A DNA stretch of 64,000 nucleotides from Euglena gracilis (GCA_039621445.1 CP154954.1:12642716-12706715); one strand, 5' to 3'. Shown: positions 4,572 to 63,995, counted from the first letter of the stretch. Numbers and translations: made by a program. The notes: a model not told the origin generated them from the sequence alone.

Positions 4572-4832
4572 CAGGCTTCTTTTTAAGTCACCTGACCCGC
4601 CCCCCCGGGGGGAGGGGGGTGGGTGGGGGGGGTCCGGGCCGGACCCCCCGGGGGGGGGGTCCCGCGCCAGAGGCGCTGGGTATACCTTTTCGGCGCGAAG
4701 CGCCGAAATTTTTTGAAAATTGCCTTTAACGGGCCCGATTTTGGGGGGGGGTCCCCTCCCTGGGGGGGGTCCCGCGCCACCCTGGGTGGGTGGCCCCCCC
4801 CCTCCCCCCCGGGGGTCTTAAAAAGAAGCCTG
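4572..4832. mobile_element. hAT-like MITE (261 bp)
   Basis: Perfect 16-bp TIR CAGGCTTCTTTTTAAG. 8-bp TSD GACCAAAC at 4564-4571 and 4833-4840. The empty site is visible in paralogous modules ('ctgggaccaagcctacgg' at about 655 and 7557). Confidence 0.95.
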
Positions 4833-9202: not shown

Positions 9203-9538
<336 letters not shown>

Positions 9539-10691: not shown

Positions 10692-11059
10692 CAGGCTTCT
10701 GCTTAAGGGATTGCAGTACCCCCCCCCCTGGGGGGCTGGACTGCAGCTAGTCCAAATTTGGCTAGTGGGATTTCTAGCAGACCCCCCGTGGGGGGGGGTC
10801 TGCCAGCAGGGCTAGTAGTGGAAATTTTTTTGGACTCCCAAAATGGCAAAAAATGCCCGTTTTGGGCCATTTTTGGGAATTTTTGGAACAAAATCAGCCC
10901 AAAACCTATTAAAAACCTCATTTCCAGCTCGGCGCGCAGCGCCGGAGGAATTTTTTTTTTTACAGTTGGGGGGACCCCCGGATCTAGCTAGTCCATTTTT
11001 TTCAGTGTCTAGCCGATTGGCTGGCCAGTACCCCCCCAGGGTCCTTAAGCAAAAGCCTG
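10692..11059. mobile_element. hAT-like MITE (368 bp)
   Basis: TIR CAGGCTTCTGCTTAAGG / CCTTAAGCAAAAGCCTG. 8-bp TSD AACCTGAC at 10684-10691 and 11060-11067. Confidence 0.95.
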
Positions 11060-21712: not shown

Positions 21713-22185
21713 CAGGGGTTTTCTTAAGCCGGAGGGTACCCTATCCCCCCGCTGGTGGTCCAGCCAGCCAGCAGCCCAAATCCAGCCAGCAGCCCGGGCT
21801 GGGAGCCCCCCCCCCCCCCGGGGGGTTGAGTGAAATAAAGTTGGGTCCAGCCCGGCCGGAGGCCGGGCCAGCCGGCCGCAGACTGGTCAGCCAACTGGGC
21901 TGCCCAGCTCACCTGTCCCTGCACTTTTTCCCCTCATCACAGCTTCCTCCATCACAGCCCCCCAGCCTTGACCTAGCTCCATCCATCAAAATGTCGAGAA
22001 GGCAAAAATGTTTGAGAAAATTTTGTTTTTCATCGACGCAGCCGAGCCCAGCCCCCTCCAGCCCCGGACCCCCCCTCCCCCCCTATACCCCGGGGGGGGG
22101 GGGTCCAGCCAGCAGCTCATTTCCAGCCAGCAGCCTTTTTGCCAGCCGGAGGCTGGACCCCTGGGGGTCCTTCTGAAAACCCCTG
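21713..22185. mobile_element. hAT-like MITE (473 bp) nested in an older element
   Basis: TIR CAGGGGTTTTC / GAAAACCCCTG; TSD CCCATGAT / CCCATGAC (7 of 8). Confidence 0.85.
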
Positions 22186-33351: not shown

Positions 33352-33749
33352 CAGGGTTCGATATAAGGAGGGCGTACATGATTTAGGTGGGGGGTGTCCC
33401 CCCCCACCCCCCCCCCCTCCTGGCCCGCAGGGGGGGTCCGGACCACCCCCCCCACCTGCAAGGGGGGTCCGGACCGACCCTCGGGGGGTACCCGGGACCC
33501 CCCCAAAAAAGGGTCAATTTTTTCCTCCTGCGCTTCGCGCCGAAATTTTTTTGCATTTTTGGCCAATTTTTGCCCAAAAAAGTGCCCAAAATGGCACTTT
33601 TGGTCGTTTTGGGGGGTCAAAAATTTTCCGAAAATCGGTCACCCTGACCACGCCACTGTTTAGGGTGTCCCCCCCACCCCCCCCCCTCCTGGCCCGCAGG
33701 GGGGGGGGGCCGGACCACCCCCCCCCTCCTCTCTTTATATCGAACCCTG
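33352..33749. mobile_element. hAT-like MITE (398 bp), same family as 46090-46486
   Basis: TIR CAGGGTTCGATATAA. 8-bp TSD TGTGGGTG at 33344-33351 and 33750-33757. Confidence 0.95.
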
Positions 33750-34476: not shown

Positions 34477-35365
34477 CAGGCACCTATGGCCGACCAGGGC
34501 CGACCAGGGCCGACCAGGGCCGACCAGGGCCGACTATGGTTTTCAGGACCCCTGTAGGTGGGGGTTCCGACCACGGCCGACCAGGGCCGACCAGGGCCGA
34601 CCAGGGCCGACCAGGGCCGACCAGGGCCGACCAGGGCCGACCAGGGCCGACTTGCATGTGGTTGGCCGACCGAAGGGGAATGGATGAAGGAATTCGGCAG
34701 CTTTGCCTCTGGAACAAGCACCTCTGATGATGCTGGGCGATGCAGGGCGATGCTGGGCGATGCTGGGTGATGCTGGATTTTTGGAGACCAGAGGTGGGGT
34801 TCCGACGCTGGGCGATGCTGGGCGATGCAGGGTGTTGCTGGGCGATGCTGGGCGATGCTGGCATTTTTTTTGTATATTTTGAAGAACTAAACCCATTTTT
34901 GGATAATTTTCTCACAAATCTCCAGTTTTTCACCATTTTGGCCATTATGGATCAGTTTTTGCTAATTTGGGGGCTATTTGTCACTGATTGGGCAAATATT
35001 GGGCTAATTTTGGTCAATCTGAGCATTTTTTATGGAATTTTGGCCATTTTGCGCCCTTTTGGTAATTTTGGGTCATTTTTAACAATCTTTTGTGGATTTT
35101 GTTGGCGTTTTTTGGTAATTTTTGGTTATTTCAAGCCATTTTAGGTCATTTTGGTTGCTTTTGGGGAGCAAATGGAGGCTTTATGGGGCATTTCCTTTTG
35201 ATCTTGGCGAGACAATTCAGAAAATCATTGCATCCCTTCACATTTTTTCTGTGACGGATACCCCCACCTATGGCCGACTATTTGCCGACCAGGGCCGACC
35301 AGGGCCGACCAGGGCCGACCAGGGCCGACCAGAGCACCAAAATGGGAAGTGACCATAGGTGCCTG
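34477..35365. mobile_element. hAT-like non-autonomous element (889 bp) with internal 10-bp minisatellites
   Basis: TIR CAGGCACCTATGG. 8-bp TSD CACAGCAT at 34469-34476 and 35366-35373. Internal (GGCCGACCAG)n and (GCTGGGCGAT)n. Confidence 0.95.
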
Positions 35366-41759: not shown

Positions 41760-41781
41760 CTATATGAACACATGAGCTGCA

Positions 41782-41817
<36 letters not shown>

Positions 41818-42936: not shown

Positions 42937-42987
<51 letters not shown>

Positions 42988-43450
42988 TATATATGTGTAC
43001 ATGCAATGTTCGTATATATATATATATTATATTTTATATGTGTATATATATAATGTGTGTGTATATAATAGATATATATACATATATACATATATATATG
43101 TCTATATATATATCTATTATATCTGTGTATATGTAATGTGTGTGTCTCCCCTATCTCTTCTCTCTCTCTATATTTGTCTCTCTCCTGTGTGTATATCTGT
43201 GTGTGTCCTCTCCTCTGTGTGTATATGTAAATATGAACACTTGAATTGCACCGAATGTTCATTCTCCATATATATTATATATATATTATATATGTGTATA
43301 TATAGTGTGTGTATATAATTTATATATATATTATATTATATATATGTATATATCTGTGTGTATAGATATATATTATATATTGTATATGTGTCTATGTAAT
43401 GTGTGTGTATAGTCTCTATATATTCTCTCTATATCTTGTATATATTGTCT
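41760..43450. repeat. Long degenerate TA/TACA/TATG low-complexity tract
   Basis: Direct reading. Includes a local duplication 41705-41790 vs 42295-42380. Confidence 0.97.
42614..42870. mobile_element. Fold-back (palindromic) element inserted in TA microsatellite
   Basis: Almost the whole element is an inverted repeat centred on 'gggctatgttgcgcaacatagccc'. Each end carries a 'tttagtacc...ggtactaaa' hairpin; the right end is GCCATA. Confidence 0.8.
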
Positions 43451-43800: not shown

Positions 43801-44562
43801 AGAAGCAGGCGGCTGTTCTCTGACTGACCCTGGCCTCACCTGGGACACCCCACTCCCTCCAGCCCCACCAGCTCGGACAGCAGCGTTGGGACCCACGGTC
43901 CATTTGGCAGGAGCCCTCCGCTCACCCCGGCGGTGACCGCGCCACCCGTGCCTCCACGGTGGTCGTGTGGCTCTGTTGATTGCCACCGATTTCGCCTTAT
44001 CATGAAAACCACACAACTGCCAGTGCTGGAGTTGTTGTCCAGCTGAACAGTGGGAACAGATTCTGACTGAGATAGAAATAGAAAGGAGATGGAAAAGAAC
44101 GTTCTCTTACGCTTCCGAGAGTATTCCATAATGTGTTTGGTGAAGGTTTTAAATGAAAATTTTTTCTCAAAAAATATATATGACATAATGTTTGGTTCTT
44201 TATATTTTTTTGTTGTTTGTTATGGAAATGTCAGGACCGTTTTCAGTACACGTACAGTTTGCCTTCTTTCCTTGTACATTTTCCTTCTTTCATATTGTCA
44301 AGTTTTTCCATCTTTGTTTTTTGAATGTGTTTGAATTTGTCTGTTTTGGCTCTCAATTCAGGTGTTACACTTTGTTACGACAGTGCAACTGCGTGTGCCA
44401 AACAGATGCGATTGCCGAATTGTATTCTACACCACAGTCAGCCCCCATTCTTGAGGAGCCCCCCAATTTCACAGCAGAACCCTCTGACGAGGGCTGCCCC
44501 ACTGAATTGCAAGACAACCAGGCTTCTGCGTCATGTACTGAATTGTACAGTATGCTTTGGGA

Positions 44563-44610
<48 letters not shown>

Positions 44611-44659
44611 TAAATTGGTGTGGCTGGGGGAAATAATGACCAACCCGATAGTGTGTGTT

Positions 44660-45380
44660 TCACTACCTACGCGGCACCCTCTGGGACAACACCCTTTGGG
44701 TTGGGCCAGTCAAGGCCCTTTCGGTGCGGAGAAGGGCAAAAATTGCCAAGAAAAATACGGAACACACCCGAAGGCTTGGGGCGCGAGTACTCAATTCTTA
44801 GCCGCCGGTCCTGGGGTCGCAGCACCAACCCCTGGGGGAGGGGGTAACCTGAGCCGTCGGTTGCTCAGCAGGAGCTGCCCAGGGTTTAGCCCACAAAATG
44901 GGCGCTGGGGGCGAGGCATGGGGGTGCGAAACAACCGCGCCATGCAATTCTGGGCAAAATGCCATGGAAAGCTCCATGGGACGCAGGGTCACTGCGTAAA
45001 TCCTTCTTCTGAATCGGTGTTGCTGGGGGAACTCCTTGGGAGGAACTGCTTACCGACCCGACAGTGTGCTTGCGGGGAAGTGTGCTGTCAGTCGGTGTTG
45101 GGCGTGTGTGTTGTCAGTCTGTGTTGCGGTTTCGCCCCTGGCTGGCAGGTGGGGCGTCGTCACAGGTGACGACCCTGCCAACCCTCGTCCCCAACTGCTT
45201 TTGTCAGAAGGTTAAGAACGAGCTCTGCGTCTTCCTCCCAGGATGGGGGAGGGGGGTGCTGAAAAAAACGAGCCCCAAAAACAAGGCAGCGCGGGACGGA
45301 AAAATGGCTGCTCCATTACCTATGGGGCACCCTCCGGGACAGCACCTTTTTTCGGAGGGCCATCCAAGGCCTTTTCGGCG
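44660..45380 (+). repeat. Dispersed copy of the 671-bp structured repeat (one unit plus terminal redundancy)
   Basis: Reverse-complement homology to 14901-16518. 'acctac/t g.ggcaccctc.gggaca.cacc' occurs at both about 44665 and 45318. Confidence 0.9.
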
Positions 45381-45454
45381 CGGCTCACCCCTGGACTCCA
45401 AGCCCCGTACTGTCTTGGCAGTGAGGTGAAGCGCATGGAACATTCCTTAAACCC

Positions 45455-46700
45455 GGCCTAGGAAGGCTCACAGGCTCTAATGTGCCTGTGGGAAATCGCT
45501 TCGGGACCTGTTCCACCCGTTGTGTGGTGGCCGCGGTTTCCCGTGTATCTCTCTCTTTCCGCACACAGCGGTCAGGTCCGAAGACCTGGGCGGTTTCGGA
45601 ACCGGCCGGGCCATGTGCCACTGAACCCCGGCTGGTGGTGGCATACCGCCTTGTTTTTGGGCGCGCATGCTGTGCGGGTGGGCTAGTTATGGACCCCAAG
45701 AGTATGGCGACCCCGGGGCCACCCACAGCTCGATCCAAGCGGGCAAGTCATGGTCTCTTGGGCACCCACCTGGAGCTGTGGAGAGCAACTCACACCTGAG
45801 GAACGGCCCATGTGCTGTTGCCCAGGATTGTGGCACAACCCCCTCTCCTTAGGCATGAAGGTGGTCAGCCCCTCTGGGATTCTCTGGTCGACGGCCGGCG
45901 CGGACGGGGTCCTGGCTACCTCATCAGCCCGCCTCTTCCACCCAGATCCGGGTCAGCCTTCCTGGAGCGACCCGCATAGAGCCACTATGGGGAGCCCGAC
46001 CCCCTACCCACCATGTAGGGACAGGGGTCTCGTCCAGGGACCGTGGGGCGCCCTGCCCCACGTCTCACCAGGAGGGTAAGGGGCATCACCAGGGTTTGAT
46101 ATAAGGAGGGCGTACATGGTTTAGGTGGGGGGGGTGTCCCCCCCCCCCCCCCCCCTCCTGGCCCGCAGGGGGGGGGTCCGGACCACCCCCCCCCACCTGC
46201 CAGGGGGGTCCGGACCGACCCTCGGGGAGGTTCCCGGGACCCCTCCCAAAAAGGGTCAATTTTTTTCTCCGGCGCTTCGCGCCGAAAATTTTTTGCATTT
46301 TTGGCACATTTTTGCCCAAAAAGTGCCCAAAATGGCACTTTTGGTCGTTTTGGGGGTCAAAAATTTTCGGCCACCCTGACCGCGCACCTGTTTAGGTGGG
46401 GGGGGTGTCCCCCCCCACCCCCCCCCTCCTGGCCCGCAGGGGGGGGTCCGGACCACCCCCCCCACCTGTCCTTATATCGAACCCTGGGCATCACCCATGT
46501 GGCTGTCTCCCTGGTGCCGACTTGCACTTGTGGCGGTGCAGGAGGGACCTTGCACTCGATCGAGTCTTTGGAGGCCGAGTGCACCTTCTCGGTTGCTGCA
46601 TGGGGAGCCTGATCATATTTGTCTATCGCCTGAGCTGGCGGTAGCCCATATTGTGTCCTCGCCGTAGGCGGTTGTGGTCTCGGCTCATCCGTGGACTAAG
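45455..46700 (+). repeat. Diverged dispersed copy of the about 890-bp structured repeat (split by a MITE)
   Basis: Collinear similarity to the units at 56853-61256 ('tgttccacccgttg', 'ctttccgcacacagcggt', 'atggaccccaag', 'tgaaggtggtca', 'gtgccgacttgcact'). Inverted fragments lie at 33195-33260 and 33758-33980. Confidence 0.9.
46090..46486. mobile_element. hAT-like MITE (397 bp)
   Basis: TIR CAGGGTT(T/C)GATATAAGGA. 8-bp TSD GGCATCAC at 46082-46089 and 46487-46494. Highly similar to 33352-33749. Confidence 0.95.
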
Positions 46701-48636
46701 GCGGCCGGATTCGCACTTAAGGATTTTTATGTTGATTTGCGCATATGCGCAAATTCCCGAATTTTTTCATTCCGGCTGTGAAGGTGAGGGGGACGAAGAA
46801 ACACGCCGGCAAGCAAGGGCAAAAACGAAGTGATTTTTTGGTTTTGGTGGAGTGACCCCCAGGATTTTGGCAAAAAAATGGTGCTTTTGAGGGGTGTTGG
46901 GGAGGATTTTGTGGCCCCAAACCCCCTGGACCTTGCCCGCCCAAGTGGAAAAAAAGCAAAAAAGCACCAAGGGACCGGGACCCTGCCCGCCACTTTGAGT
47001 GCGCGGAGCATTTTTTGGGAAAGTAGTGTCGCCAGCAGTGTGTTCCCTCCCGGTGCCTCGGAGTGTGTGTTGCTATTTTTACCCCTGGGACTGGGATTTT
47101 TTAGGATTTGGAAGAAAAGCAGGGGACTGGGTGACAGGGTTTTGGGGGGTGGGGTTGCGGGTCGGTGGGTCTGGTGTGACGGGGGAATCGGGTGAAGAGG
47201 TACAGGGGGGAGAGTTGCGGAGGGTGCAGAGGTGCGCAGGGGGGGGGTGGAAGGTGCGGTCAGGGCAGCCGGTGTGAGACACCCACAGGGGGTGTCAGTG
47301 GGGGCTTGGTGGGACACTGACATTGGTGTGTGTGCGTGCAACCCATGATTTGATTTTTGTGTTTTTGTGAGGCATAAAAATTGATGAACAATGTTTGTTG
47401 CCGCAATTACGCAAGTCAACACCCGAATGTGTGTGGGCCGGTGTAGGAGAGAGGGGATAGGGAGGGAAACAGGAGTTAAAAAGGGACCGGGTTGAAAAGG
47501 CCGATAAACAACACAAGCCCCCGGCGGGATATGCTTGCCCCTGGAGGCTGAACAGGATGGGGGGGGTGCCGCCCCACACTCCGTCGCGCTGGTTGTGAGT
47601 GGGAGGTGGGACTTGAGGAGGGATATTTTTCTGTGGCACGGGTGAGAGGGACAGCAGGGCACGAGAGGGGGTGCAGCCACAAGAGGGGATGTGCAAGTCA
47701 CACCAACCCAAAAAAAATTTAATTCCACCCCCTGGCAGGGAAAGGGAAGCTGATGCGGAGGGAGAACGGGATGAGGAGCAGCAGGTGGGTGACCCTGTCG
47801 ACGATGGGTTGGAGGTGGTGGACGGCCGGGGTGGGTGGCGTACACGTACACAACGACAGCGGGGTTTTTGTGATGCCTGAGAGGGCTTTGAGAGAATGAA
47901 TCAACCGAACCAGAGACAATTGCGCAAATGCGCCCATGGACATTTTACAAAACATAAGATGCTGAGGTAAATTGTGAAATGAGCAGGGGAATTGAAAAAA
48001 AAGAAGACCGAGGAGACAAGCCCATAGCCAGTCTCACTTCTTGTGCTTGGAGAGCCGCTTGGCGAGGCTCTCTGAGGCGGCAGCCGGCTTCCCGCCCGGA
48101 TTCAGCAGCCCGCGACGGACGGTGCTCCTGGCCGCAGCGGCTGGGGCTGGTCGTGGTGGTGGAGGCGGTGGCTCCTCCCCTCGGACTCCTCCTCTTCCGA
48201 CTCTGCCTCCTCTGGAGCTGGCTCCCGGGCCGCCGCCGCCTCCGCCTCTACCTTGGCGATGGCCGCTTCGATCATTGGCTACGTCACCGGGTATTTCTTG
48301 CGGTCGAGGAGGTGGTAGGACTTCGGGCCCTTGAGGGCTTCACCCGGCCCGGGCGGACGGACCAGCCCCGCCGCCTTCCACCTGGTGTCCTCTTTGCCTT
48401 TGCCCTTGCCCTTCCCCTTGCCCTCCCCCTTCTTCTCCTCCCCCTTCTTCTCCTCCGCTTTCTTCTCCTCCTCCCTTCTTCTCACCTTCCACTCCTTCCG
48501 CTTCGGCGGCTCTGGCTTCCTGATCCCGGGGGTGGTCTTCTCGATGGTGTCCTCCTCCTCTTCTTCCACTTCTCCCTCCACTGGTCGGGGCGCGAGAGCT
48601 TCACTGGCCAGGGATGAGGAGGCGCCGGAGCTGCTG

Positions 48637-49101
48637 CAGGGGGGGGGGGATGCGTTTCACATTTTTACGCATTTTTTCGCATTTTTTGCGCATTTTTTTC
48701 AAATTTTCCAAAAATGCGCATTTTTGCGCATTTTTTCGCATTTTTTGTGCATTTTTTCTTTTTTTTCAGCGCATTTTTTTTTGCTTTTTGGCACATTTTT
48801 TCGTGATTTTCCAAAATTTTCGCATTTTTTGACAATTTGTGCAATTTTTTGCAAAAATTTGAAATTTTCGACTTTTTTTGAAACTTACATTTTCCTCATT
48901 ATTCTACATAATTTCTTCAAATTTGGTGCCATTTTTGCATGTTTTTGGGTAATTTTTGCATTTTTGTGATTTTTGCGCATTTTTTCTCGGATTTTGCACA
49001 TTTTTGCGCATTTTTTCCAAAAATGCGCATTTGTTGCGCATTTTTTTGCGCATTTTTGCGCATTTTTTTCCGAGGCCGGGCGAGCACATTTCCCCCCCCT
49101 G
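48637..49101. mobile_element. MITE with 7-bp TSD inserted in an exon (465 bp)
   Basis: Ends CAGGGGGGG / CCCCCCCTG. TSD GCTGCTG at 48630-48636 and 49102-49108. Internal 'ttttgcgcattt' repeats. Removing element plus one TSD rejoins DSNSSDSS|SGASSSLASE in frame. Confidence 0.92.
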
Positions 49102-50245
49102 GCTGCTGTCGCTGCTGTTGCTGTCGTCGGACTCCTCCGCCTGCTCGGCCACTGGCACGATGACCGGGCTGGCCTCCTCCGGCTGGCTGCTGGCGGCAGG
49201 TAGGGTCAACTCCAGGGTCTCCTGGCTGGGGGCGGTCATCTCCACATCGCCCTCCTCTGGGCTGTCCACTTCCTCGACGTCTTCCCTTCTGACCTTGGGG
49301 GGTGGAGGCCTGGGCTTCTTCTCCACCTCCTACTCCCGACGCTTCTTCTTCTTGTCACCATCCTCCTTCTGGCGCTGCTCTAGCTTCTGCTTGCGGCGCT
49401 CCTCCTGCTGCAGTTTAGTCTGGCGGCGCCGCTCCTCAGACTCCTTCGCCCTTCGCGCCGCTCCTCGGACTCCTTCGCCCTTCGCCCCGTGTCCTCAGCG
49501 GCCAGCCAGAGCTTGTCCTTCAGGGCGGCATTCTCCAGGGGCACCCAGAGCGGGTCCCCCACCTCTAGCGCAGCCAGGAGCAGCGGCAGCTGGCGGAGGG
49601 GACGGGCCAGGGCAGGGTCACCGTGTTGCCCACACTCTGGGCGACCTCCTCCAGGCTGCTGGCCGAGTCCTCCACCACCACCAGCACCTCGGGCGGCTTG
49701 GCAGCCCAGGCCGCCACACTGGCCGACACCGCGGTGCCGGCGGCCTGGATGACATGGCGTTGGCCACCACCATCCGGCGGACCACCCTGCGCCACAGCCA
49801 CTCCACGCAGAGCCAGTGCAGCCCCAGCCCGCATTTGGACTCCACGTCCCACTCCACCTTCGGCAGCACCTGCGAGGGAGCACACAACAGATACAACATA
49901 ACATAACAGAAAGAACACTGATTCCAAATAATTTGGGCGCATTTGCATGTTACAACCCTGGTCCATTCGCACAGACTGCTTAAAACCCAGGACCTTTCTG
50001 CACCGGATGCAGGATGACCTTGGTATGCTCGACGTCTCCCGGTCCGAAGAGCACGACCATGGACCGCTTGTCGAATTTGCGGGCGACCCCCAGGCCGCCC
50101 TGCCGCAGCCAGACGTCCACCATGGCCGTTTTCCGTCCCGGCGCCAGCCGCTGCACCGCCGTCTCCACGGCTGACACCGCCCCCGTCCTGCCGTAGATGA
50201 CGATCGGCACCAGGCCAGCCAGACGCCTGACCAGCTCGGACAGGA

Positions 50246-50484
50246 GGCAGCAGGATTCTGTTTAATCTGATGCATCCTGCACAGGGTCGTTTCATCTACG
50301 CAAGTGCGCGCATTAAAAGTTGTGTGAAATTGCGCAAATCAACGAACATTGTCACATTCTGAAAGGAAAGTGCTTGCAGAAGGCCACTTCTGGAACGATA
50401 TTTGTGTTAAATTTTTTTGATGCGGGCAAATGTGCAAACAAAAAACGAAGAGCACATTGAGGAAAAAAAAACAGAATCCTGAGC
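50246..50484 (-). other. Euglenid-type nonconventional intron (239 nt)
   Basis: Perfect 13-bp terminal inverted repeat CAGGATTCTGTTT (50251-50263 / 50469-50481), with CAG at +4..+6 and CTG at -8..-6. Excision gives the in-frame join VEVNHNT|VLSELVRRLAGLVPIVIYG. Confidence 0.7.
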
Positions 50485-52899
50485 CCGTGTTGTGGTTGAC
50501 CTCCACGACGACGAGGCCCACCGCGGCCCCCAGCGCCTCCACCGGCACCTCCTTCCCACCGGATTTGTACAGGAGGCACCGCACCGCCTTCTCCTCCCCC
50601 ACTGGCCTGGCCGCCCACCTCGGGCGTCAGCCGCCGCCGGAGGGACCGCATGTGCGAAGACAGCAGCGTGCGGCCCCGCGCTGCCAGCGCCAACTCCACA
50701 CTGAGGAGGCCCGCCATGGCCTCCGGGGTCTCCTCCACCAGCCGCTGCAGCGGCGCGCACATCTTGATGACGTCGCCCTGCGCAGATGACAACACACACA
50801 CACACACACATACACGAGCCCAGCACTCACCATGGATCCATTGTGTTGGTGCGCGCAAAAGCAAAAAACATGCACAATGGCATCAATTATGGCATCAAGC
50901 TACAGTAATTTGAATGTAGTGGGATCACACCTGTGCGACGGACCGGTCCCACCCGGCCTGCCGGTAGGCCGCCGCTAGCCGCACAGCCGGCACGGGGAGA
51001 GGTCTTTCCCCTTCGCCAGAAGGTTGGCGCGGGATGGACAGCTCTTTCACCGCAGATTGGATGGCCTGGACATCGCCTCTGGCGGCCCGCCGCAGGTGCA
51101 CCGGCGTCAGGTTGTGGGGCACGGTAGCCAGGACGTACTTGCCCTGGCCATAGTACTTCATTTGATGCATATTTCAGACACAGAAGGATGGGCAACACGA
51201 GAGCGGCTGCACGGGAGGGGCTGCACGAGACGGGAAGCAAAACCAGAAACAAACAAATAAAAGGATGAACCCTTCGGCGGGTTCAGCTTCCGGGCCCGGA
51301 AGCTCTCCGCCCACTGCTTCAGCGGCACGTGATGTGCTGCCCGCTGACCAGCACGTATTTGTCCTCTGTGAAGAGAATGAATGGAATGTGTGTGCAGCAG
51401 CGCGCATCAACAGAACAGGTGACACAAGACATAACATACTGTCTTTCTGCCACACGGTGACCCGCACCATCTCCAGTGGGGGGTTTAGCTGCAGCTGCCG
51501 CAGCTTCCGCTCCACCTCCATGTTGTTCAGGGGCCGTAGAATGTGTGACCTGAGGCAAGGCGGCATTCCAAAAAAGGGGGGCTTTCTCGCCCTGGATTGA
51601 ATTGTACATTCAACAACTGAAACATCCACACTGGAAGGTCGTCTAACCCCCGGTAGGCAATCCGCCCAAATTATGCAAAAAAATCATCCGACTTAGGCAT
51701 TTTTTTGGGCAAAAATTGGAAAAAAAGTGAAACACCATGACAGAACCCCAGGAATGAATTATTCCTGGTTCCTGGTTCGTGACGGGGGGGGTATGTATAT
51801 ATGTGTGTGTGTGTATGCCATGTTTCTGTATTCTGCAACTGTTTATCTGTGTCAAAAACTGCCCAACACAAACCGGGGGTTACACGTCACGCATTCTAAT
51901 TGCGAAACTGTTAAACCATTGGCAGTTGACGGTTGGGAAACCGTAGGCCTGGTTTTTGGGAAGTGCAGAACGTGTGCGGAGAGAAGTAATGACATTTTTT
52001 ATTTTGGGCCTTGTGCGCGTCGAAATTGCGTATTGACTGACCCTAAATTGTGTCCAAAGTTGTTGAGCTGTCGCCTCATCAGAAAAATCTTTCAGTTGCA
52101 CTCCTCGAAGGGATCCGACGGGACGTACACACCCGGCGGTGCCCTAGGTGGCACCATGTCCCTGCTGCTGGAGGCTGCGCCACGCCGTGCAGGTTCCGCA
52201 GGTGTCCGAACGCCCTTTTTGAGGAGGTAGCTCACCGCCCACCACGGACTCGAACCGCGAACGCCGAGTTGGTCGCTCGGGCAACGACTCCTCGGATGAG
52301 GACTCCACAGCCGCAGATGCTGGCAGATTCAGCGCGTATTCACCTAATATATTTTTTGAAGTAGAATGTTGATTTGCGCAATTGCGCCCAAAAAAACGTA
52401 TTATTTTTGTTTAGGAGGGGGTATGACCCCCCATTTGCAAAAAAAAAAGCAAGTACTCTGAGAAATGCAGAGTTTCTGACATACCGTACCTTCTAACCCT
52501 CTCTTGTTTGTGGCAATCTCTTTTTCAAGCAATTCAATTCAAACTGAGCATACGACAAAGTGCAGGCGTGTCTTGTTATATGTTGCTATCTATCAGGCTT
52601 TCAGACTGTTCACACAGGACATCGGTATAATTCATTTGATGTGTACGCCCACTGAAGGTTCCGCCTGTATGTTTTTTGCATACAAAATGTTTTTTATTTG
52701 CGCAAATGCGCAAATAAAAACATATTTTGTTTGATACAGCACAATTTCAACGAGATTGATGTTATTCTGTGTGTCACAACGTAACCCATATGGACATATG
52801 TTTGTTTTTGATGAGCGCAAATGCGCAAATTTCAATGAACGCTTCTTCATTGTACAATTTGAAGCATGAATGTCTCATAGTGAATGGTCCTCTCAAAGC

Positions 52900-55630
52900 T
52901 ATAGCTCACTGTGAATCTGACTGTACCGTACAGTGTACCCATGTACACTGTCCAAGTGCACCTGGTAGGAGTCCAATTCCGACTGGGCCCGGTGACTGCT
53001 GCCAGCCTGCGCGTCGTAGCAGAGCTGGTCCAGCTCCGTCGTGGCGTCGGCGGAGGGCATCTGGTCCTTCAATAACATCTGCAGGGCATACTGCGGGATA
53101 TCCTTCAGCACCGTCTCGCCCTTCGGTCCGACATCGTGCGCCAGCAGGGATGGCAGTTCCGTCCAACCATCCGGCCACTGCTGCACCACCGCCTCATCCT
53201 CCGACTCCTCCCCCCACGTCCGCATCGAGGTCCTCCAGCTGTCGCATGCTCTTCAGACACATCCCCCTCACCGAGGCGAACCTCACGATCTCGTGCACCA
53301 GCCAGTCGGGGGCATCCAACGGAGGCCACAGCTCACTGCTGTCCAGCAGGTAGTCTAGGTTCCACAGGCAGTCCGCCATCCACCGCCGGTCCACCCCTCC
53401 CGCCTTCAGCTCCCGGGCACTGTATTGCCCCTGCCTCTCCAGGAGGTACAGGTCCATCACGTCCTCCACCTCCACTGCTTCCGAGTGGTGCTGCATGGAC
53501 CTGCCCAGCCTGCTCAGCGTCGCCTCGTTGACTCCTCCGAGAAGCAACAGGCGGGCAGCTGCTCGTGCCACCGATCCCACATCAGCAGCGCACACGCCAG
53601 CGTCCGCACGTAGTCCGAGTGGCCGCGTGCACGGTGTCCCGGGGTCGGCGCCTCCAGGTGGAGCAGCATCGCCAGGGCGTTGCACAGCACCTTCCGCGCC
53701 TGTGTGCCCGTCTGCGGCCGCCGCTCCTCCCAGTGGCACTCCCGCACCTGCCAACGCGAAGCAGGCCAGACCAACAGGAGGTCCTGCAGCGCCTGCGCCA
53801 CCGCCAGGTCCCGGTCCAGCCTCTTCTGGGCCTCATTCCGGCGGCTCTCCTCCAGAGGCGGATGCACTCCATCTCCCAGCTGCCCGACTGCCATGCCCGC
53901 TGCATCTTGGCGCTGGACTCCGTGTGACGCACCTTCTGGGCAGCCTGCCTCTCCGCCTCCTCCTTCCGTCGCTGGGCCTGCTGCATCAGCTGCCGGCGTC
54001 GCTCCACCTCCGGCGCCACGTGTCCCGTCACCGTCTCAGGGTCCGGAACAGCCGTCGCAGGCGGGCAGGGCGGTCCGTCGGCACCATCAGTATGGCGCAG
54101 ACCCACATCTCCAGCACCCGCACCTTCGGGTTTGTGGACCACTGCTCCCCGTGCGCCATCGTGCCCCCTTGCAGGAACAGCAACAGCGGCAGCAGGCGGC
54201 GGTACAGCATGTTCGGCACCTGCTTGTACGCGCCGTGCAGCGGCCACACACCATACGGGGGCAGCTGCCGCAGCGCCTCGCTCGCATCCCACTGCTAGCA
54301 CTCCCGCCCGTACACCACCTTCAGGTGGCGGTACCACAGGTTGATGTCCACCAGCAGGGCAGCGGGGCCTTCACACGGCACAGCACGTCGTCCCTCAGAA
54401 AGCGGAGGACCTTCAGCATCCCCATATGGGAGGAGATCCGGTCGTCCGTCAGCATGAAGGGCCACCACACCGGGCACCGTGCGTTCTCTCAGCCCCATCA
54501 GCATGACCACACAACGGACAGTGTCAGTGTCCGTGATCAATCACTCAGAACAAGGACAATTGGTGCGCGCGTTTATTTGTGCACGCAAATGCGCAAATCA
54601 ATTGTTTCAAAAAACATTTCTCAGTCCTTCGGGAGGTCCTTCAATGAGCACTGAGAAAGTTGTATCTGCGCGCAATTGCACAAATAAATCAGTACAAAAA
54701 TCATCCATGTGTATCTAATGCCAGAAGCGGGTGCTCCCTTAGAGATATCTTTTCAAACACGTAAGTCAGAGTAATATGTGCGCATTTGCGCACATGCGCA
54801 TACAATAAAAATTTTCCATACGGCAGAGTGGCAGAGTCAGAAATATAATTTTACATACAGAAGCATCAGTGATCAGCAGTACCTACCGAGTCCATCAATT
54901 TGTAAGGCAGAAAAAAAAACACTTCTGAGGTGCAGTCATTGTGATGTCCGATGCACGTCCAGCGGTATGCGCAGCTCGTGCGCGTCCAGCGGCCGCGCGC
55001 TGATCTCCAACACCAGCTCCAGGAACGCCGGCAGGTCGGACTGCACCAGCCGTGCGGACACCCGGTGGACGCGCCCCAGCAGCTGCTCCAGTGACGGTTA
55101 CCACGGGTACTCCGGGAACCGGCAGTGGCGGTGGCAGCGGGCGTGTGAGCGGCTGGACGACCTGTGGGAGCAGTCGCTGGGCCGTAGCAGCCGACTGGCC
55201 GCCCCTTGCCTCGCCAGCGGCGCCTCGTGCTCCTTCGCCACCACCCGCTGCGCCGGCCGCGGGCAGGCGTGCTGCCGCAGCGCACGGTACACCGCCCAGG
55301 CGTCTTTCAGCAGCAGCGCAATCTGCTGCCGCCGCGGCTCACGCGCCAGCTCCTCCAGCAGCGCCGCACTGCCCTCCGTCCGCAGCACCGCACTGTGCCG
55401 CCCTCCGCCCGCAGCGGCACCCTGGTGTGGGCTACCTCCGCCACAAGCGTCTTCAGCGGGTGGCCGCGCTGCACCACCGCCGCCACAAACTCCTCGCAGA
55501 TAACAACGAAGTGGGCCTTCACCAGCAGGCCCATCAGCTTCCCAGCCTCCGCGGAGAGGGCGGCCTCCTCGCTGTAACCCTCGTAGCCACGGCGGTGTGA
55601 GTGGGTGCTGCTGGCCTGGGAGGACTCCAT
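52900..55630 (-). pseudogene. Decayed putative DDE/RNase H-like transposase (DUF6589-like motif order)
   Basis: Reconstruction across frameshifts: LRIPLDVHR..ENARCPVWWPFMLTDDRISSHMGMLKVLRFLRDDVLCRVKAPLPLLVDINLWYRHLKVVYG..W..LPPYGVW.LHGAYKQV...YVRTLACALLMWDRWHEQLPACCFSEES/NEATLSRL. In-frame TAA (about 55098), TAG (about 54295) and frameshifts are present. The family assignment is by motif recall only. Confidence 0.5.
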
Positions 55631-55894
55631 CAGTCGTCCCCAGGTCTGCCAGCACGCTACCTTTCATCAACCCACAAATCCTTTAATGACACACCCCCGT
55701 CATCGTCCTCCTCCCACTTTTGGTAAATGCGCATTGCACGCTGTGTCGCATAATTTTTTTTGGAAATGTTTGTGCGCAACTGCGCAAGCCAACAAACAAA
55801 AAGAACATAATAATAACAGCTGTACCCTGCCTTGCCATCCCCCATGTATGTCAAATGCAGGCAGGTGACAGCACAAAAACATTGCCATTCCGCC

Positions 55895-56275
55895 TTGGCC
55901 CCCCCCCCGAATAATAGCACCCCCCAAATAAAAGCCCCCCGAATAATAGCCCCCCTCCGAGATTTTAGCCAAAAATCCGAATAATACCCCCCCTCGGACC
56001 ATGCACAAAAATCGGAATAATAGCCCCCCCCCCCCTGGAGGCCTTTCTCCAAACTGGCGGCGATGCTTCTGAGTCGACCTCATCAGTGTTCACATGGACA
56101 ATGTCTTGAAGAAGATCAGACATTACTAAGAGAAGGATGTTTGTATGTGTTTGGAGCTCCCCCCGAAAAATAGCCCCCCCCGTATTGTTATCCAAAAATC
56201 CGAATAATAGCCCCCCCCCCCGAATAATAGCCCCCCCTGAAAATTTAACCGATTGTCCGAATAATAGCCCCATGG
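55895..56275. repeat. Cluster of 'ccgaataatagccccc' motifs (pogo/Tc2-like subterminal repeats)
   Basis: About seven copies of the motif in two groups. Confidence 0.7.
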
Positions 56276-56852
56276 AGGATTTACAACACAGCACCATCTG
56301 GGTCGTTGTACAAATAAAGTCAACAATTGTGGGCACAATTGCGCAAATCAACAGGGACATTTTTCATTTCAGACATAATCTGGGGTATTGCAACCGTCAT
56401 CTCAGCGACAAAATCAAACACAGCCAAGGCCAATTGCTTGTGCGCGCATTTGCGCAAGTGTGCAGTGTGTCACATTAAAAATTCTTCAGCTCACCAATTA
56501 AACCCACCCCCACTTATAAACCCCCCCATTTACTAACCCCCCCCCTCGGGCCGACCAACCAAACCGGGACTTATAAACCCCCCCTTCGGGGAAGAAAAAT
56601 GAAAGCCGCCGGGGACAATTTTTTCGGCCGCAAACCACCCAGAAACTGCTTTTTTGGCCATTTTTTGAGATCGACCATCATCAAAAATGCTATTTTTGAC
56701 CAAATTTGCCAAAAATTGCCAATTTGGGGCGTTTCGGGGTCATTTTGGGGGTTTGGATTTTCACCAACAATCCAAGCCCCCTGCTGTTTTGGGAAAACAC
56801 AGGAAAGGTATTTTGTGCCTGACCTAGGAAGGCTCACAGGTTCTGGGGCCCT

Positions 56853-61922: not shown

Positions 61923-63995
61923 TCACTCCTTGTGCAGCGCCGCCCCTCGCCGGCTCTGCACCGGTGTCCACGCGACACCTTCGTCTCTTCGGTCTCTTTC
62001 TTCTCCTCGGGGTGGGTTGCCCTGCGCACTCCCAGGGCGAGAGGGTCTAGAAAATCGCATTGCTGCTGAAGAAAAAGAATCCCCAGGGCGGCGCCCACGG
62101 GCCGCTTCCCTGTTGGGTCGCCAAGGGGCTTGGGGCCGGGGCAAATCCCGCTTCGCTTGCTCCCCTGCGGACGGGGTTGGCGGGGCACAGGCACCACGCT
62201 GCCTGCCACCCGCCCGGACTTGGCTCGGTCTCGCTCCGGGGACGTGGCTCCCGCAGGGTTGGTGGCCCTGGGGAGGGCCGTGGGGGTGGCGCCTTGGACC
62301 GGGGTGGTCGGCCTCCCCAGGGCGGTCCATAAGGGACGGGAAGTTTTTTTTTTTTTTTTTCGTTAAGGACCGCCCCTTAAGGACCGCCCCCCCGACCAAG
62401 GATCGACCGGGACTTGAACGGGGGTCGAAAACCAAAAAGTCGAAAAACGCATTTTTTGACGCTATGGGCGGATGGGCGATGTTCCAAAAGTGCCAGGAAT
62501 CACTTTTTTTCCCCGAAGTCGACCCGTTTCGGGCAAAATACGGCCACTTTTCGGTCATGGATTTTCAAAAAAATTTCTCGGCTGTGCCGGGACGGGATTT
62601 TTTTTTTTTTTTGGCTTAAGGACCGCCCTGGGCCTCCCCGATCCTGGCACCTTCATGCCAGTCATGCGTCTGGCGCTCGAGGTCCGCGGGGCGCTCGACG
62701 TTCTGGACTGCTGCGGCTTCTTGCCATTCTTGGATGATGCTCCGCCGCTGGGGGCCGCACGAGGCCCAGACCTGGTTCTGCAGATCTGGGTCCCATGATT
62801 CGTACACGGCTTGTCCTCGTCCTGCTTCTCGTGGATCCTTCAGCACCGCCTTCCACTCCTCGTACTTGGCTCGCCGCTCGGCAGGCCACTCACTCAACGA
62901 AGTGAATTTCCTCTTCTTTGTGGGGCCTTGGGAAGAGGTGTCGTCGTCGGTGGTGTCGCTGGGTGGCGGCGGGGGAGCGGTGAGGAGGAGGCGGTTGGGG
63001 GCCTCGATGGCGGGAATGGGGAGACCTTGGAGGAGGGCCAAGGAAGACGAGGAGGAGGAGGGGCCGATGGTGAGTGCGTTGAGATGCACATTCTGCACGA
63101 TGGAGGGGGCTTGTGGCGCGGAGGGAGGGAGGTAGATGGGGATGGGTACCCGGACCTCCACGGGGACGGGGACGGGCATGGGGACCCGGACCTCCACGGG
63201 GACTTGCACGGGGACCGGGACGACCCGCTCGATGACCCGATCCACGAAGACAGGCTCCCGCACGGGAACGGGGACCTGCCTCTCGACGATGACGACCCGC
63301 TCCTGGAGGACCTCACGGGTGGGTGGGGGGAGGCATGGGGTTGGGGAGGCGGAGTCCGGGTTGGGGAGAGGGGAGCCTTGGGAGGCTGTGGAGGCCGTTG
63401 GGGCGCTGGGGGATTGGGAGGCGGTGCTTGGCTGCGCTGCTACCACCTCGAGGGCGTCCGTCTCCGTCTCCATGGCCGTGGGCTGGCGACTCTCAGGCCC
63501 GCCCGGGCTCCCCGGGGGAGGGAACCTTGGCGGCGTCACCCCCGGTTCACCGCCCAGCGTAAACCCCGCTCCGGTGTGGGCCAGCCTGTCGCTTGGGGCG
63601 TCCCCCCTCGGCTCTGAGGCCGGTTCTGGCAGCACGATCACGGACCCGCCCGGGCTCCCTGGGGCTGAGATCCTTGGCGGCGTCACCCCCAGTTCACTGC
63701 CCGACGTAAACCCCGTCACGGTGTGGGCCAGTCCGTGGCTCGGGGCGTCCCCCTCGCTGTCCTCAGGCCCGCCCGGGCTCCCCGGGGGCGGGAACCTTGG
63801 CGGCGTCACCCCCGGTTCACTGCCCGGCGTAAACCCCGCCCCGGTGTGGGCCGGCCTGGTGCTGCGGCTGGTTGGGGCGTCCCCCTCCTCTTGGCTGGTT
63901 GGTAGAGGCTCGCCCGGGCTCGCCGGGGGCGGGATCCTTGGCGGCATCACCCCCGGGTCCTTGCCCTTGCTGCTCACGGATTGGGCGCACCTCAC
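61923..63995 (-). CDS. Pro/Ser-rich low-complexity protein (at least 583 aa after MITE removal; may start outside the window), possibly a mobile-element ORF
   Basis: 455 stop-free codons (63995-62631) continue in frame for 128 more codons (62309-61926) once the MITE and one TSD are removed (RIGEA|DHPGPRR). Contains repeats GVTPPRFPPPGSPGGPE and VPVEVRVP. No catalytic domain recognised. Confidence 0.6.
62318..62630. mobile_element. hAT-like MITE (313 bp) inside the Pro-rich ORF
   Basis: TIR CAGGGCGGTCC(A/T)TAAG. 8-bp TSD GGCCTCCC at 62310-62317 and 62631-62638. Confidence 0.95.

What the first reader, a model, noticed from the sequence alone, without database searches (positions are those of the whole stretch)
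50246..50484. Nonconventional intron whose ends look like local hAT-like MITE TIRs; geometry 3+5 nt equals one 8-bp TSD (MITE-to-intron 'introner' system)
Seen: this non-GT-AG interruption has a perfect 13-bp terminal stem. Its left end CAGGATTCTGTTTAA matches the TIR of MITE 10692-11059 (CAGGCTTCTGCTTAA) and of MITE 4572-4832 (CAGGCTTCTTTTTAA) at 13 of 15 positions each. Cutting 3 nt before CAG and 5 nt after CTG restores the reading frame (239 nt, not a multiple of 3). Known: euglenid nonconventional introns carry paired CAG(+4..+6)/CTG(-8..-6) and have been suggested to be transposon-derived; hAT elements make 8-bp TSDs. Inference: 3+5=8, so this splice rule removes exactly element plus one TSD. 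Any CAG...CTG, 8-bp-TSD MITE would then be spliced seamlessly in either orientation, explaining the odd +4/-8 offsets. Caveat: no TSD survives at this old intron and the host gene is decayed.
Basis: partly seen in the sequence, partly recalled or inferred. Interest (0 to 1): 0.85.

Follow-up and report, generated by a model that had tools for sequence, protein, structure and literature searches.

The report
Euglenid nonconventional intron with transposon-like ends
A 239-base interruption in a silent, decayed gene fits the known rule for Euglena's odd non-GT-AG introns, and its ends resemble those of small mobile elements nearby, which supports the idea that such introns began as transposon insertions but does not prove it.

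Summary
On the minus strand, 50246-50484 is 239 nt. It has 3 nt, then CAG, and ends with CTG plus 5 nt. A perfect 13-bp terminal stem closes it. It is 41% GC between flanks of 68-72% GC with strong codon periodicity, and removing it keeps one frame. Eighteen ORF fragments of a multi-copy family place the downstream exon start here, so the intron is old. It matches the published Euglena nonconventional splicing code, except that the acceptor exon starts with T.

The two cited MITEs are real, with CAGG...CCTG ends and perfect 8-bp duplications. An unbiased scan found six such elements, all starting CAGG. The 13-of-15 match to their ends is correct, and only 2 of 2,375 other CAG-started 15-mers reach it.

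Removing 3+5 nt with such an element restores the empty site by arithmetic. Published data agree: an 8-nt repeat at a recently gained intron, and the same Y|R pattern at both junctions.

Descent of this particular intron is unproven. It has no duplication (2 of 8) and no internal similarity to the MITEs. The locus has no RNA coverage, and none of seven MITEs lies in coding-like DNA. MITE origin was proposed in 2014; the named source family and the 8 = 3+5 reading were not found in print.

The parts
50246..50484 (-). Nonconventional intron, 239 nt. Read on the minus strand it is N3 + CAG ... CTG + N5, with borders GC..CC and 41% GC.
   Evidence: It is the only candidate in the window that combines a stem of 9 bp or more, a low-GC interior and coding-like flanks in one frame.
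50469..50481 (-). 5' arm of the 13-bp terminal stem, starting with the CAG at intron +4..+6.
50251..50263 (-). 3' arm of the stem, ending with the CTG at intron -8..-6. This is the end that matches the MITE TIRs at 13 of 15. Its last 11 nt are read as TESC in the ORF fragments P0001 and P0014.
50485..50626 (-). Upstream coding-like exon segment. It is supported by composition and open frame only; no homologue was found.
   Evidence: GC1/2/3 .74/.46/.93. No hits. A stop and frame change lie just upstream, at 50627-50639.
50019..50245 (-). Downstream exon of a multi-copy family with no Pfam assignment. It ends at a conserved K|V(GT) donor.
   Evidence: 19 HMMER hits, best 70% identity. The 18-row alignment A1 bounds the exon at the same places. 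GC3 is .88.
4572..4832 (.). MITE, 261 bp, with a perfect 16-bp TIR starting CAGGCTTCT and the 8-bp TSD GACCAAAC.
10692..11059 (.). MITE, 368 bp, with a 17-bp TIR (1 mismatch) starting CAGGCTTCT and the 8-bp TSD AACCTGAC.
33352..33749 (.). MITE, 398 bp, with a TIR starting CAGGGTTCGATATAAGG and the TSD TGTGGGTG. It belongs to the same family as 46090-46486 (87.8% identity).
46090..46486 (.). MITE, 397 bp, second copy of that family, with the TSD GGCATCAC. Depth in the run contigs is very high, so the family is abundant.
34477..35365 (.). TIR element, 889 bp, with a 13-bp perfect TIR starting CAGGCACC and the TSD CACAGCAT.
62318..62630 (.). MITE, 313 bp, with a TIR starting CAGGGCGGTCC and the TSD GGCCTCCC. 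It abuts the end of a coding-like minus-strand ORF.
21713..22185 (.). Older MITE-like element, 473 bp, with a TIR starting CAGGGGTTTTC and a TSD matching at 7 of 8.
44516..44533 (+). Orphan MITE-like end. Its first 11 nt are identical to the 10692 MITE end. Contigs of two runs leave the window sequence exactly 3 nt upstream of its CAG.
   Evidence: (table 7). No 3' partner and no downstream letters were found in the window.

Best explanation
Window 50246-50484 (minus strand) is an old euglenid-type nonconventional intron. It lies in a silent, probably decaying copy of a multi-copy gene family of unknown function.

In the pre-mRNA its two 13-nt inverted-repeat arms, which begin at the CAG and end at the CTG, would pair and bring the exon ends together. 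The unidentified nonconventional splicing machinery would then cut 3 nt upstream of the CAG and 5 nt downstream of the CTG and join the exons in frame. The anatomy is shown here. The cutting is inferred from the published code.

The arms are of the same kind as the termini of small DNA transposons that have demonstrably moved in this genome. Those MITEs start CAGG, end CCTG, have 13-17 bp TIRs and are flanked by 8-bp target-site duplications. Because 3+5=8, the splicing rule applied to such an element removes the element plus exactly one duplication and restores the uninterrupted message in either orientation. That is arithmetic.

The most likely history is therefore that the intron began as an insertion of a hAT-like MITE of this type into an ancestor of the gene family. 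It has since lost its duplication and its interior similarity and kept only what splicing needs. That history is inferred, not shown.
For: Intron anatomy:
- N3-CAG/CTG-N5, 13-bp perfect stem, non-GT-AG borders.
- Stems this long are essentially absent from shuffles: 6 observed against 1 in 30 shuffles.
- Composition steps from 68-72% to 41% GC exactly at the borders. Codon-position GC periodicity continues in one frame across the excision.
- It is the only candidate of its quality in the window.

Family evidence:
- The downstream exon has 19 homologues.
- Homology starts within a few residues of the predicted junction in all 18 aligned rows.
- P0001 reads through a homologous intron tail. P0014, 40% identical in the exon, shares only the 4 residues that translate the 11-nt arm.

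Fit to the code:
- N3 is strict, N5-6 is tolerated, CAG/CTG is essential, and about 12 bp of pairing is essential (PMC12501133, sections read).

MITEs:
- Six clean elements with perfect 8-bp TSDs and TIRs of at least 10/12 were found without assuming any terminal sequence. All six start CAGG.
- Two copies of one family have different TSDs.

End similarity:
- 13 of 15, reached by 2 of 2,375 other CAG-started 15-mers.

Literature consistent with a TSD origin:
- An 8-nt direct repeat at a recently gained intron.
- The CAG(G)/(C)CTG consensus.
- The same Y|R pattern at both junctions (PMC4770533).
- 84.4% of E. agilis introns have junction direct repeats (PMC12501133).
Against: - No RNA evidence. 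Depth is about 0 over 50021-50880 in three contig sets and one raw RNA run, and no joint was listed at the intron. The only record crossing an intron border is unspliced: an X1 contig over 50449-51368 at depth 2.
- The acceptor exon starts with T. The published code prefers a purine, and T worked in 1 of the 2 contexts tested.
- The upstream exon has no homologue, so the 5' border rests on frame, composition and the rule.
- No TSD survives (2 of 8), and the interior has no similarity to any MITE or to anything else in the window.
- The intron position is older than the family's diversification, while the matching MITE copies look young.
- The other intron end matches the MITE TIR at only 11 of 15.
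- None of 7 TSD-bearing MITEs lies between coding-like flanks.
- No transposase lies in the window.
- A GC-AG reading with the same 5' border (50484..50258, 227 nt) also keeps the frame.
Confidence: 0.55

Rival explanations
1. It is a nonconventional intron, but its likeness to the local MITE ends is chance plus shared constraint. Both need CAG(G)...(C)CTG and a base-paired stem. The intron arose in some other way, for example by double-strand-break repair as Milanowski et al. 2016 suggested, or by conversion of a conventional intron.
For: - Only 15 nt at one end are compared, and 4 of them (CAGG) are consensus for the intron class anyway.
- The other end reaches 11 of 15.
- No TSD and no interior similarity.
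- The intron is old, and paralogues carry different arms. The PCPQLC group shares only ...CCTG, as inferred from the residues.
Against: - Only 2 of 2,375 other CAG-started 15-mers reach 13 of 15. One of those, at 44519, is itself a MITE-like end.
- The published 8-nt repeat at a new intron and the repeated junction pattern are what a TSD predicts.
Confidence: 0.25
2. It is a conventional or 'intermediate' GC-AG intron, 50484..50258 (227 nt). The spliceosome removes it, four more residues (ESCC) are coding, and the stem only helps to bring the sites together.
For: - This pair keeps the frame open and shares the 5' border.
- It would explain the conservation of E-S-C in P0001 and P0014 as coding.
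- Introns carrying both conventional and nonconventional motifs exist, at 0.8% in E. agilis.
Against: - The donor context GCTCAG is a poor conventional donor (my reading of the sequence).
- Paralogues of the PCPQLC group have no AG at the equivalent place, and their homology starts at the nonconventional site.
- The N3/N5 spacing and the perfect 13-bp stem meet the nonconventional code exactly.
- The GT(50472)-AG(50258) alternative is absent from the list of open-frame pairs.
Confidence: 0.12
3. The 3 and 5 nt offsets reflect the geometry of the cutting enzyme, not a target-site duplication. Cutting 3 nt outside the stem on the 5' strand and 5 nt outside it on the 3' strand leaves a 2-nt 3' overhang on the excised hairpin, as staggered cuts across a helix do. 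On this view the sum of 8 is a coincidence. This rivals the reader's inference about the rule, not the identity of the intron.
For: - The spacing is a strict property of the machinery on fully synthetic introns that have no TSD.
- N6 also works at the acceptor.
- Conventional introns also show junction direct repeats in E. agilis.
- The comparison with staggered helix cuts is recalled knowledge, not a tool result.
Against: - It does not explain the 8-nt repeat at the new gapC intron, or why exon-end/intron-end and intron-start/exon-start share nucleotide classes.
- It does not explain why every TSD-bearing TIR element in this window ends in CAGG/CCTG with an 8-bp TSD.
- The two explanations are compatible: a machinery with fixed geometry would select for, or be selected by, elements with matching TSDs.
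Confidence: 0.3
4. It was never an intron. It is a decayed transposon insertion in a dead pseudogene, and the frame continuity is a coincidence.
For: - The host copy has frame changes and no RNA depth.
- The one contig that crosses a border is unspliced.
Against: - The interruption lies at the same exon boundary in 18 family fragments from several sources.
- The flanks keep GC3 of about .9 in one frame.
- An unspliced 239-nt insertion (not a multiple of 3, with in-frame stops) would have killed the ancestral gene before the family diversified.
Confidence: 0.05

Closest known systems
Euglenid nonconventional introns (Tessier 1995 onward; Milanowski et al. 2014, 2016; splicing code of Nomura et al. 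2025, PMC12501133)
   Same: Non-GT-AG borders, CAG at +4..+6 and CTG at -8..-6, G/C at +7/-9, an extended terminal stem, 3-nt and 5-nt spacers, and a position inside coding sequence.
   Different: The acceptor exon starts with T rather than a purine. Excision from RNA could not be checked. The host copy appears silent and frame-shifted.
hAT-superfamily MITEs and Ds-type elements. Splicing of maize Ds from pre-mRNA is the classic precedent for a transposon behaving as an intron (Giroux et al. 1994, seen only in the reference list of PMC3935182).
   Same: The window's MITEs have 8-bp TSDs and short TIRs that begin C-A-G. The intron shares the TIR-like ends. That these traits are typical of hAT elements is recalled knowledge.
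   Different: The intron has no TSD. No transposase or autonomous partner was seen, so superfamily assignment is by TSD and TIR only. Ds is removed by the spliceosome at cryptic sites and imprecisely. Here the removal would be exact and would use a different machinery.
Introners of Micromonas, Aureococcus, dinoflagellates and others (Huff et al. 2016; Gozashti et al. 2022; seen here as search listings and as discussed in PMC11282704)
   Same: DNA transposons with TIRs and TSDs that create introns on insertion, with the TSD taking part in restoring the message.
   Different: Introners are removed by the spliceosome and supply or co-opt GT/AG sites. They occur as many near-identical copies. This intron is single-copy in the window, old, and follows the nonconventional rule.
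Hairpin-guided, spliceosome-independent intron removal that yields circular introns, such as tRNA-type bulge-helix-bulge splicing. This is recalled. Circular nonconventional intron RNAs are reported, as cited in PMC11282704 and PMC12501133.
   Same: The cut sites are set by distance from a helix that joins the intron ends.
   Different: No bulge-helix-bulge motif is evident, and the enzyme is unknown.

Membership tests
Euglenid nonconventional intron | Borders are not GT/GC-AG. | tested here: inconclusive
   By the rule the borders are GC...CC (first line). However, the first two bases are GC, and an AG 12 nt upstream of the rule's 3' border gives an in-frame GC-AG alternative.
Euglenid nonconventional intron | CAG at +4..+6 and CTG at -8..-6 (N3 and N5 spacers). 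| tested here: met
   The spacers are exactly 3 and 5 nt when the frame is kept.
Euglenid nonconventional intron | Base pairing that continues beyond CAG/CTG and brings the ends together. | tested here: met
   13 bp, perfect. It is present in the MFE and centroid folds and is far beyond shuffles.
Euglenid nonconventional intron | Purine at the first base of the acceptor-side exon. | tested here: not met
   The first exon base is T, the complement of 50245. The published work calls this a preference, and T was tolerated in one of two tested contexts.
Euglenid nonconventional intron | Interrupts a coding sequence, and removal restores the frame. | tested here: met
   Open frame and GC3 periodicity continue across the excision. 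The downstream exon is supported by 19 homologues. The upstream exon is supported by composition only.
Euglenid nonconventional intron | Actually removed from RNA (spliced mRNA, circular intron). | tested here: inconclusive
   Depth at the locus is about 0 in 4 runs. No joint was listed. One unspliced contig of depth 2 crosses the 5' border.
hAT-like MITE (the window's elements) | 8-bp target-site duplication. | tested here: met
   Six elements have perfect 8-bp TSDs and one has 7 of 8.
hAT-like MITE (the window's elements) | Short TIRs beginning C/T-A-G/A. | tested here: met
   All seven start CAGG, with TIRs of 11-17 bp. That this start is typical of hAT is recalled knowledge.
hAT-like MITE (the window's elements) | An autonomous partner encoding a hAT transposase with the same TIRs. 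| tested here: not met
   318 of 373 ORFs of 80 aa or more had no Pfam domain. No genome is held, so the rest of the genome is untested.
hAT-like MITE (the intron itself as a member) | TSD flanking the CAG...CTG unit. | tested here: not met
   2 of 8.
hAT-like MITE (the intron itself as a member) | Sequence similarity to family members beyond the termini. | tested here: not met
   blastn of the intron against the window gave only matches of 24 nt or less, none to a MITE. Similarity is confined to 13 of 15 nt at one end.
Introner | Many near-identical intron copies in different genes. | not testable with these tools
   There is no second copy in the window and no genome is held.
Introner | Removal by the spliceosome at GT-AG sites supplied by the element or its TSD. 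| tested here: not met
   The borders follow the nonconventional rule. The only GC-AG alternative is weak.

The most novel reading that the evidence does not exclude
Nonconventional splicing in euglenids is, in origin and in geometry, a precise excision of hAT-like MITEs at the RNA level. The machinery measures 3 nt outside the CAG and 5 nt outside the CTG of the TIR hairpin, so that exactly the element plus one 8-bp target-site duplication is removed. CAGG-terminated, 8-bp-TSD MITEs that are still mobile in the genome, such as the six in this window, would then be the continuing source of new nonconventional introns in either orientation. The published junction consensus would simply be the duplicated target site: pyrimidine|purine at both junctions, and A then C at exon +2 and +3.
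Probability: 0.45. Interest if true: 0.85.

Novelty: new member of a known kind. Interest (0 to 1): 0.6.

Why it matters
How nonconventional introns arose has been open since the 1990s. They make up about 70% of introns in one sequenced Euglena species (PMC12501133). A MITE origin has been proposed since 2014, but Milanowski et al. wrote then that no transposable element had yet been identified in euglenid genomes (PMC3935182). My five literature searches found no paper that names a source family or links the 3-nt and 5-nt spacers to an 8-bp duplication.

This window supplies a concrete candidate: mobile elements whose termini, stem length and TSD length are just what the experimentally defined splicing code needs. 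That turns the origin question into a simple, decisive count on genomes and intron annotations that already exist, plus one knock-in experiment in an established assay.

If it holds, Euglena would be a case where a host tolerates transposon insertions in exons by removing them exactly from RNA with a dedicated non-spliceosomal system. The intron at 50246-50484 is an ordinary, old member of its class and cannot settle the matter.

Tried and rejected
- **Whole genome:** none is held.
- **RNA:** no RNA holder was listed for 46001-56000. Laying X1-X3 (contigs) and X5 (raw RNA, about 5% of the run read) on 44001-56900 gave about 0 depth at the locus and no joint at the intron among the 15 of 39 joints shown. 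I left 56.9-64 kb out of the lay because of its 892-bp tandem repeat, so MITE 62318-62630 was not covered.
- **Protein searches:** The search for homologous proteins gave nothing three times: downstream exon, upstream exon, and alignment A1 with longer lengths. The Atlas gave no usable hit. Pfam gave nothing above threshold for 3 exon pieces or for 318 of 373 ORFs of 80 aa or more. The 55 ORFs not scanned lie mostly in microsatellite, homopolymer, MITE-internal or tandem-repeat DNA.
- **DNA of paralogues:** one attempt failed for lack of a conserved stretch. Two metagenome scans found no relative. Presence or absence of the intron in paralogues could therefore only be read from ORF fragments that run into the intron.
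- **Young MITEs as introns:** after removing each of 7 elements plus one TSD, none had coding-like periodicity on both sides. The 584-aa ORF spanning the excised 62318-62630 is not periodic on its downstream side.
- **Other nonconventional introns in the window:** a scan for rule-conforming introns gave only low-stem, GC-rich, probably spurious pairs apart from the target. No in-window statistics on TSD remnants were possible.
- **Lead at 44519:** the letters that follow the break in the run contigs are not in the window, and no 3' partner exists. The other edge of that 116-nt segment (44400) fits neither AG nor the rule. The break may therefore mark the end of paralogous similarity rather than a splice site.
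- **hAT target-site preference** (A at TSD position 7, recalled): 5 of 7 TSDs have it on the + strand, and none has the mirror T at position 2. Seven elements are too few, so I treat it as a lead only.
- **Supplements:** They would bear directly on the 8-nt repeat claim.

Full report
**1. What is at the coordinates.**
The window reads like euglenid nuclear DNA, and no genome is held for it. The host gene runs on the minus strand. Read on that strand, 50484 down to 50246 is 239 nt. It has 3 nt, then CAG, and ends with CTG followed by 5 nt. The 13 nt that begin at the CAG are perfectly complementary to the 13 nt that end at the CTG (arms at 50469-50481 and 50251-50263).

Among 85,730 CAG...CTG pairs 40-4000 nt apart in the window, six have a perfect stem of 13 bp or more. 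Three of the six are MITEs, one lies in a microsatellite, one is the unexplained pair 30219-31011, and one is this element. Thirty block shuffles produced one such stem in total. The stem is kept in the MFE and centroid RNA folds, with z = -2.69.

**2. Is it an intron?**
- Composition changes at the borders. The flanks are 68-72% GC, with GC at codon positions 1/2/3 of .74/.46/.93 upstream and .73/.44/.88 downstream. The element is flat at .41.
- Removing exactly 50246-50484 joins the flanks in one open frame. A Val codon forms across the junction, and the periodicity continues in that frame.
- The downstream exon is real coding sequence or descends from it. An exhaustive HMMER search gave 19 hits, the best 70% identical.
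- All hits are short ORF-called fragments from JGI/IMG, ENA and Logan contigs of about 1-2.6 kb. No full-length or named protein was found, and there is no Pfam domain.
- In the 18-row alignment the conserved block begins within a few residues of the predicted junction. It ends at an invariant K/R-V, which I read as a conventional GT donor. The exon boundary, and hence the intron position, is therefore older than a family whose members are 31-69% identical to the window's exon.
- P0001 reads through about 75 nt of a homologous intron tail. P0014, 40% identical in the exon, shares with the window only the four residues TESC that translate the last 11 nt of the 3' arm.
- The upstream exon has no homologue. 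It rests on frame and composition.

**3. No transcript evidence.**
No run that holds the stretch is on record as RNA. I laid three contig sets and one raw RNA run on 44001-56900. Depth over 50021-50880 is about 0, and no joint at the intron is among the 15 of 39 joints shown. The only record crossing a border is an unspliced contig of depth 2 over 50449-51368.

Exon identity to P0001 (70%) is not clearly higher than identity of the read-through intron tail (12 of 21 positions by my count). That also suggests relaxed constraint.

**4. Comparison with the published code.**
Nomura et al. 2025 (PMC12501133; abstract and Results sections read) showed the following by knock-in:
- CAG and CTG are essential.
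- The donor spacer must be 3 nt.
- The acceptor spacer is 5 nt, with 6 tolerated.
- About 12 bp of pairing behind CAG/CTG is needed.
- A purine is preferred at the acceptor exon start.

This element meets everything except the last point. Its acceptor exon starts with T, which worked in one of the two contexts tested.

A rival junction exists. GC at 50484 paired with AG at 50258 (227 nt) also keeps the frame and would make ESCC coding. I rank it lower for three reasons. Paralogues of the PCPQLC group have no AG at the equivalent place. Family homology starts at the nonconventional site. The donor context is poor. The pair GT(50472)-AG(50258) is not among the open-frame pairs.

**5. The MITEs.**
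Both cited elements are real. 10692-11059 has TSD AACCTGAC, and 4572-4832 has TSD GACCAAAC. Both have TIRs starting CAGGCTTCT.

I then scanned the window without assuming any terminal sequence. The scan asked for perfect 8-bp direct repeats flanking inverted termini matching at 10 of 12 or better. It returned 1,739 raw hits. Almost all lie in microsatellite or homopolymer DNA. Six are clean elements: 4572, 10692, 33352, 34477, 46090 and 62318. One more is doubtful (52382-56338). All six clean elements start CAGG and end CCTG (the middle of that output was cut, inside the 41.9-42.6 kb microsatellite). A seventh, at 21713, has a TSD of 7 of 8.

33352-33749 and 46090-46486 are 87.8% identical copies with different TSDs, so this family has transposed. 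Its very high depth in the run contigs shows it is abundant. No transposase or any other Pfam domain was found in 318 of 373 ORFs. 'hAT-like' therefore rests on the 8-bp TSD and the C-A-G start, traits I recall as typical of hAT.

**6. The end similarity.**
The + strand left end of the intron, which is its 3' arm in the transcript, matches the 10692 and 4572 ends at 13 of 15 positions each. The other end reaches 11 of 15. Of 2,380 CAG-started 15-mers, and leaving out the four reference ends, three reach 13: this one, 44519(+) and 385(-). That is roughly 1 in 1,000 per end.

There is no TSD (2 of 8) and no interior similarity.

**7. The 3+5=8 inference.**
Take an element that begins CAG, ends CTG and is flanked by the 8-mer T1-T8 on both sides. 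Removing T6-T8, the element and T1-T5 leaves one copy of T1-T8. Because the termini are inverted repeats, the same holds on the other strand. This is arithmetic and applies to all seven MITEs here.

Published observations fit it:
- A gapC intron present in one E. agilis strain only has eight-nucleotide direct repeats at its junctions. The authors read this as double-strand-break repair (PMC4770533).
- In 55 introns, +7/-9 is G/C in 31, giving CAG(G)/(C)CTG. [quoted passage not shown]
- A purine starts the intron (51/55) and the downstream exon (55/55). A pyrimidine ends the upstream exon (49/55) and the intron (49/55). A duplicated target site predicts exactly this repeated pattern (the link is my inference).
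- Most nonconventional introns have junction direct repeats (PMC3935182). 84.4% of E. agilis introns are 'slidable' because of such repeats, although conventional introns are included in that figure.

Against the inference:
- The spacing also holds on fully synthetic introns, so it is a property of the enzyme.
- 3 and 5 nt outside a stem also describe a 2-nt 3' overhang, so nuclease geometry is a compatible or competing cause.
- In this window, none of 7 MITEs lies between coding-like flanks. No MITE was caught acting as an intron.

**8. What is already in print.**
MITE origin was proposed by Milanowski et al. 2014 (PMC3935182; abstract and the section on origin seen as passages). It is repeated in PMC6221363 (passages), PMC12501133 (discussion passages) and PMC12621601 (passages). 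The 2024 review PMC11282704 speaks of 'TSD-like sequences' at the junctions (passages).

Five full-text searches found no paper that does any of the following:
- names a Euglena MITE family with these termini;
- assigns it to hAT;
- equates the 3+5 nt spacers with an 8-bp TSD.

Subscription-only papers and supplements were not searchable.

**9. Verdict.**
The object is an ordinary, old nonconventional intron in a decaying gene copy. For this intron it remains an inference, and it needs the genome-wide octamer test.

Noticed in passing
window 44400-44533 (+): A 116-nt segment (44400-44515) has very high depth in three contig sets. Contigs of X2 and X3 leave the window sequence after 44515. That point is exactly 3 nt (AAC) upstream of a CAGGCTTCTGC whose first 11 nt equal the end of MITE 10692. 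This could be a nonconventional 5' splice site at a MITE-like end, or only the edge of paralogous similarity.
   Followed up: partly
window 47700-55650 (-): A chain of coding-like minus-strand segments (GC3 of .8 or more) contains the studied intron. It changes frame several times without intron-like gaps, for example at 53556/53630, 53873/53947 and 54049/54294, and it has almost no RNA depth. It is probably a large pseudogene or silent gene of unknown family.
   Followed up: partly
window-wide, e.g. 26771/26779, 28950/28958, 46738/46746, 52699/52707, 54779/54787/54795, 55773/55781; one copy in the intron at 50331: The palindromic hexamer TGCGCA occurs 57 times against 14.6 expected (0 of 100 shuffles reach 57). 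It often comes in pairs 8 nt apart and mostly lies in low-GC, intron-like stretches.
   Followed up: partly
window 56900-61150: A tandem array with a period of about 892 bp and at least five copies. Each copy holds a 73-75-nt CAG...CTG unit with an 8-bp stem (56942-57015 and its repeats) and a coding-like segment on the + strand.
   Followed up: no
window 30219-31011: A CAG...CTG pair 793 nt apart with a perfect 14-bp stem starting CAGCCAGCACC and no TSD (1 of 8). The same start recurs at 30201, 24234 and near 40059. It may be another repeat family or a nonconventional intron.
   Followed up: no
window 46090-46486 and 33352-33749: These MITEs carry 80-bp subterminal direct repeats (positions about 30-110 and 300-380, 96% alike within one copy) and long G/C homopolymer palindromes. 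RNA reads and contigs show a variant lacking 46159-46408.
   Followed up: partly
window 41700-43400 and 9250-9500: Long AT/GT-rich microsatellite tracts (33% GC around 42-44 kb). They dominate any naive TIR/TSD scan.
   Followed up: no
window 54489-54943 (-): A low-GC gap between coding-like segments whose ends can pair as CGGACA/TGTCCG, with 3-nt and 5-nt spacers. It is a possible CGG-CCG variant nonconventional intron.
   Followed up: no
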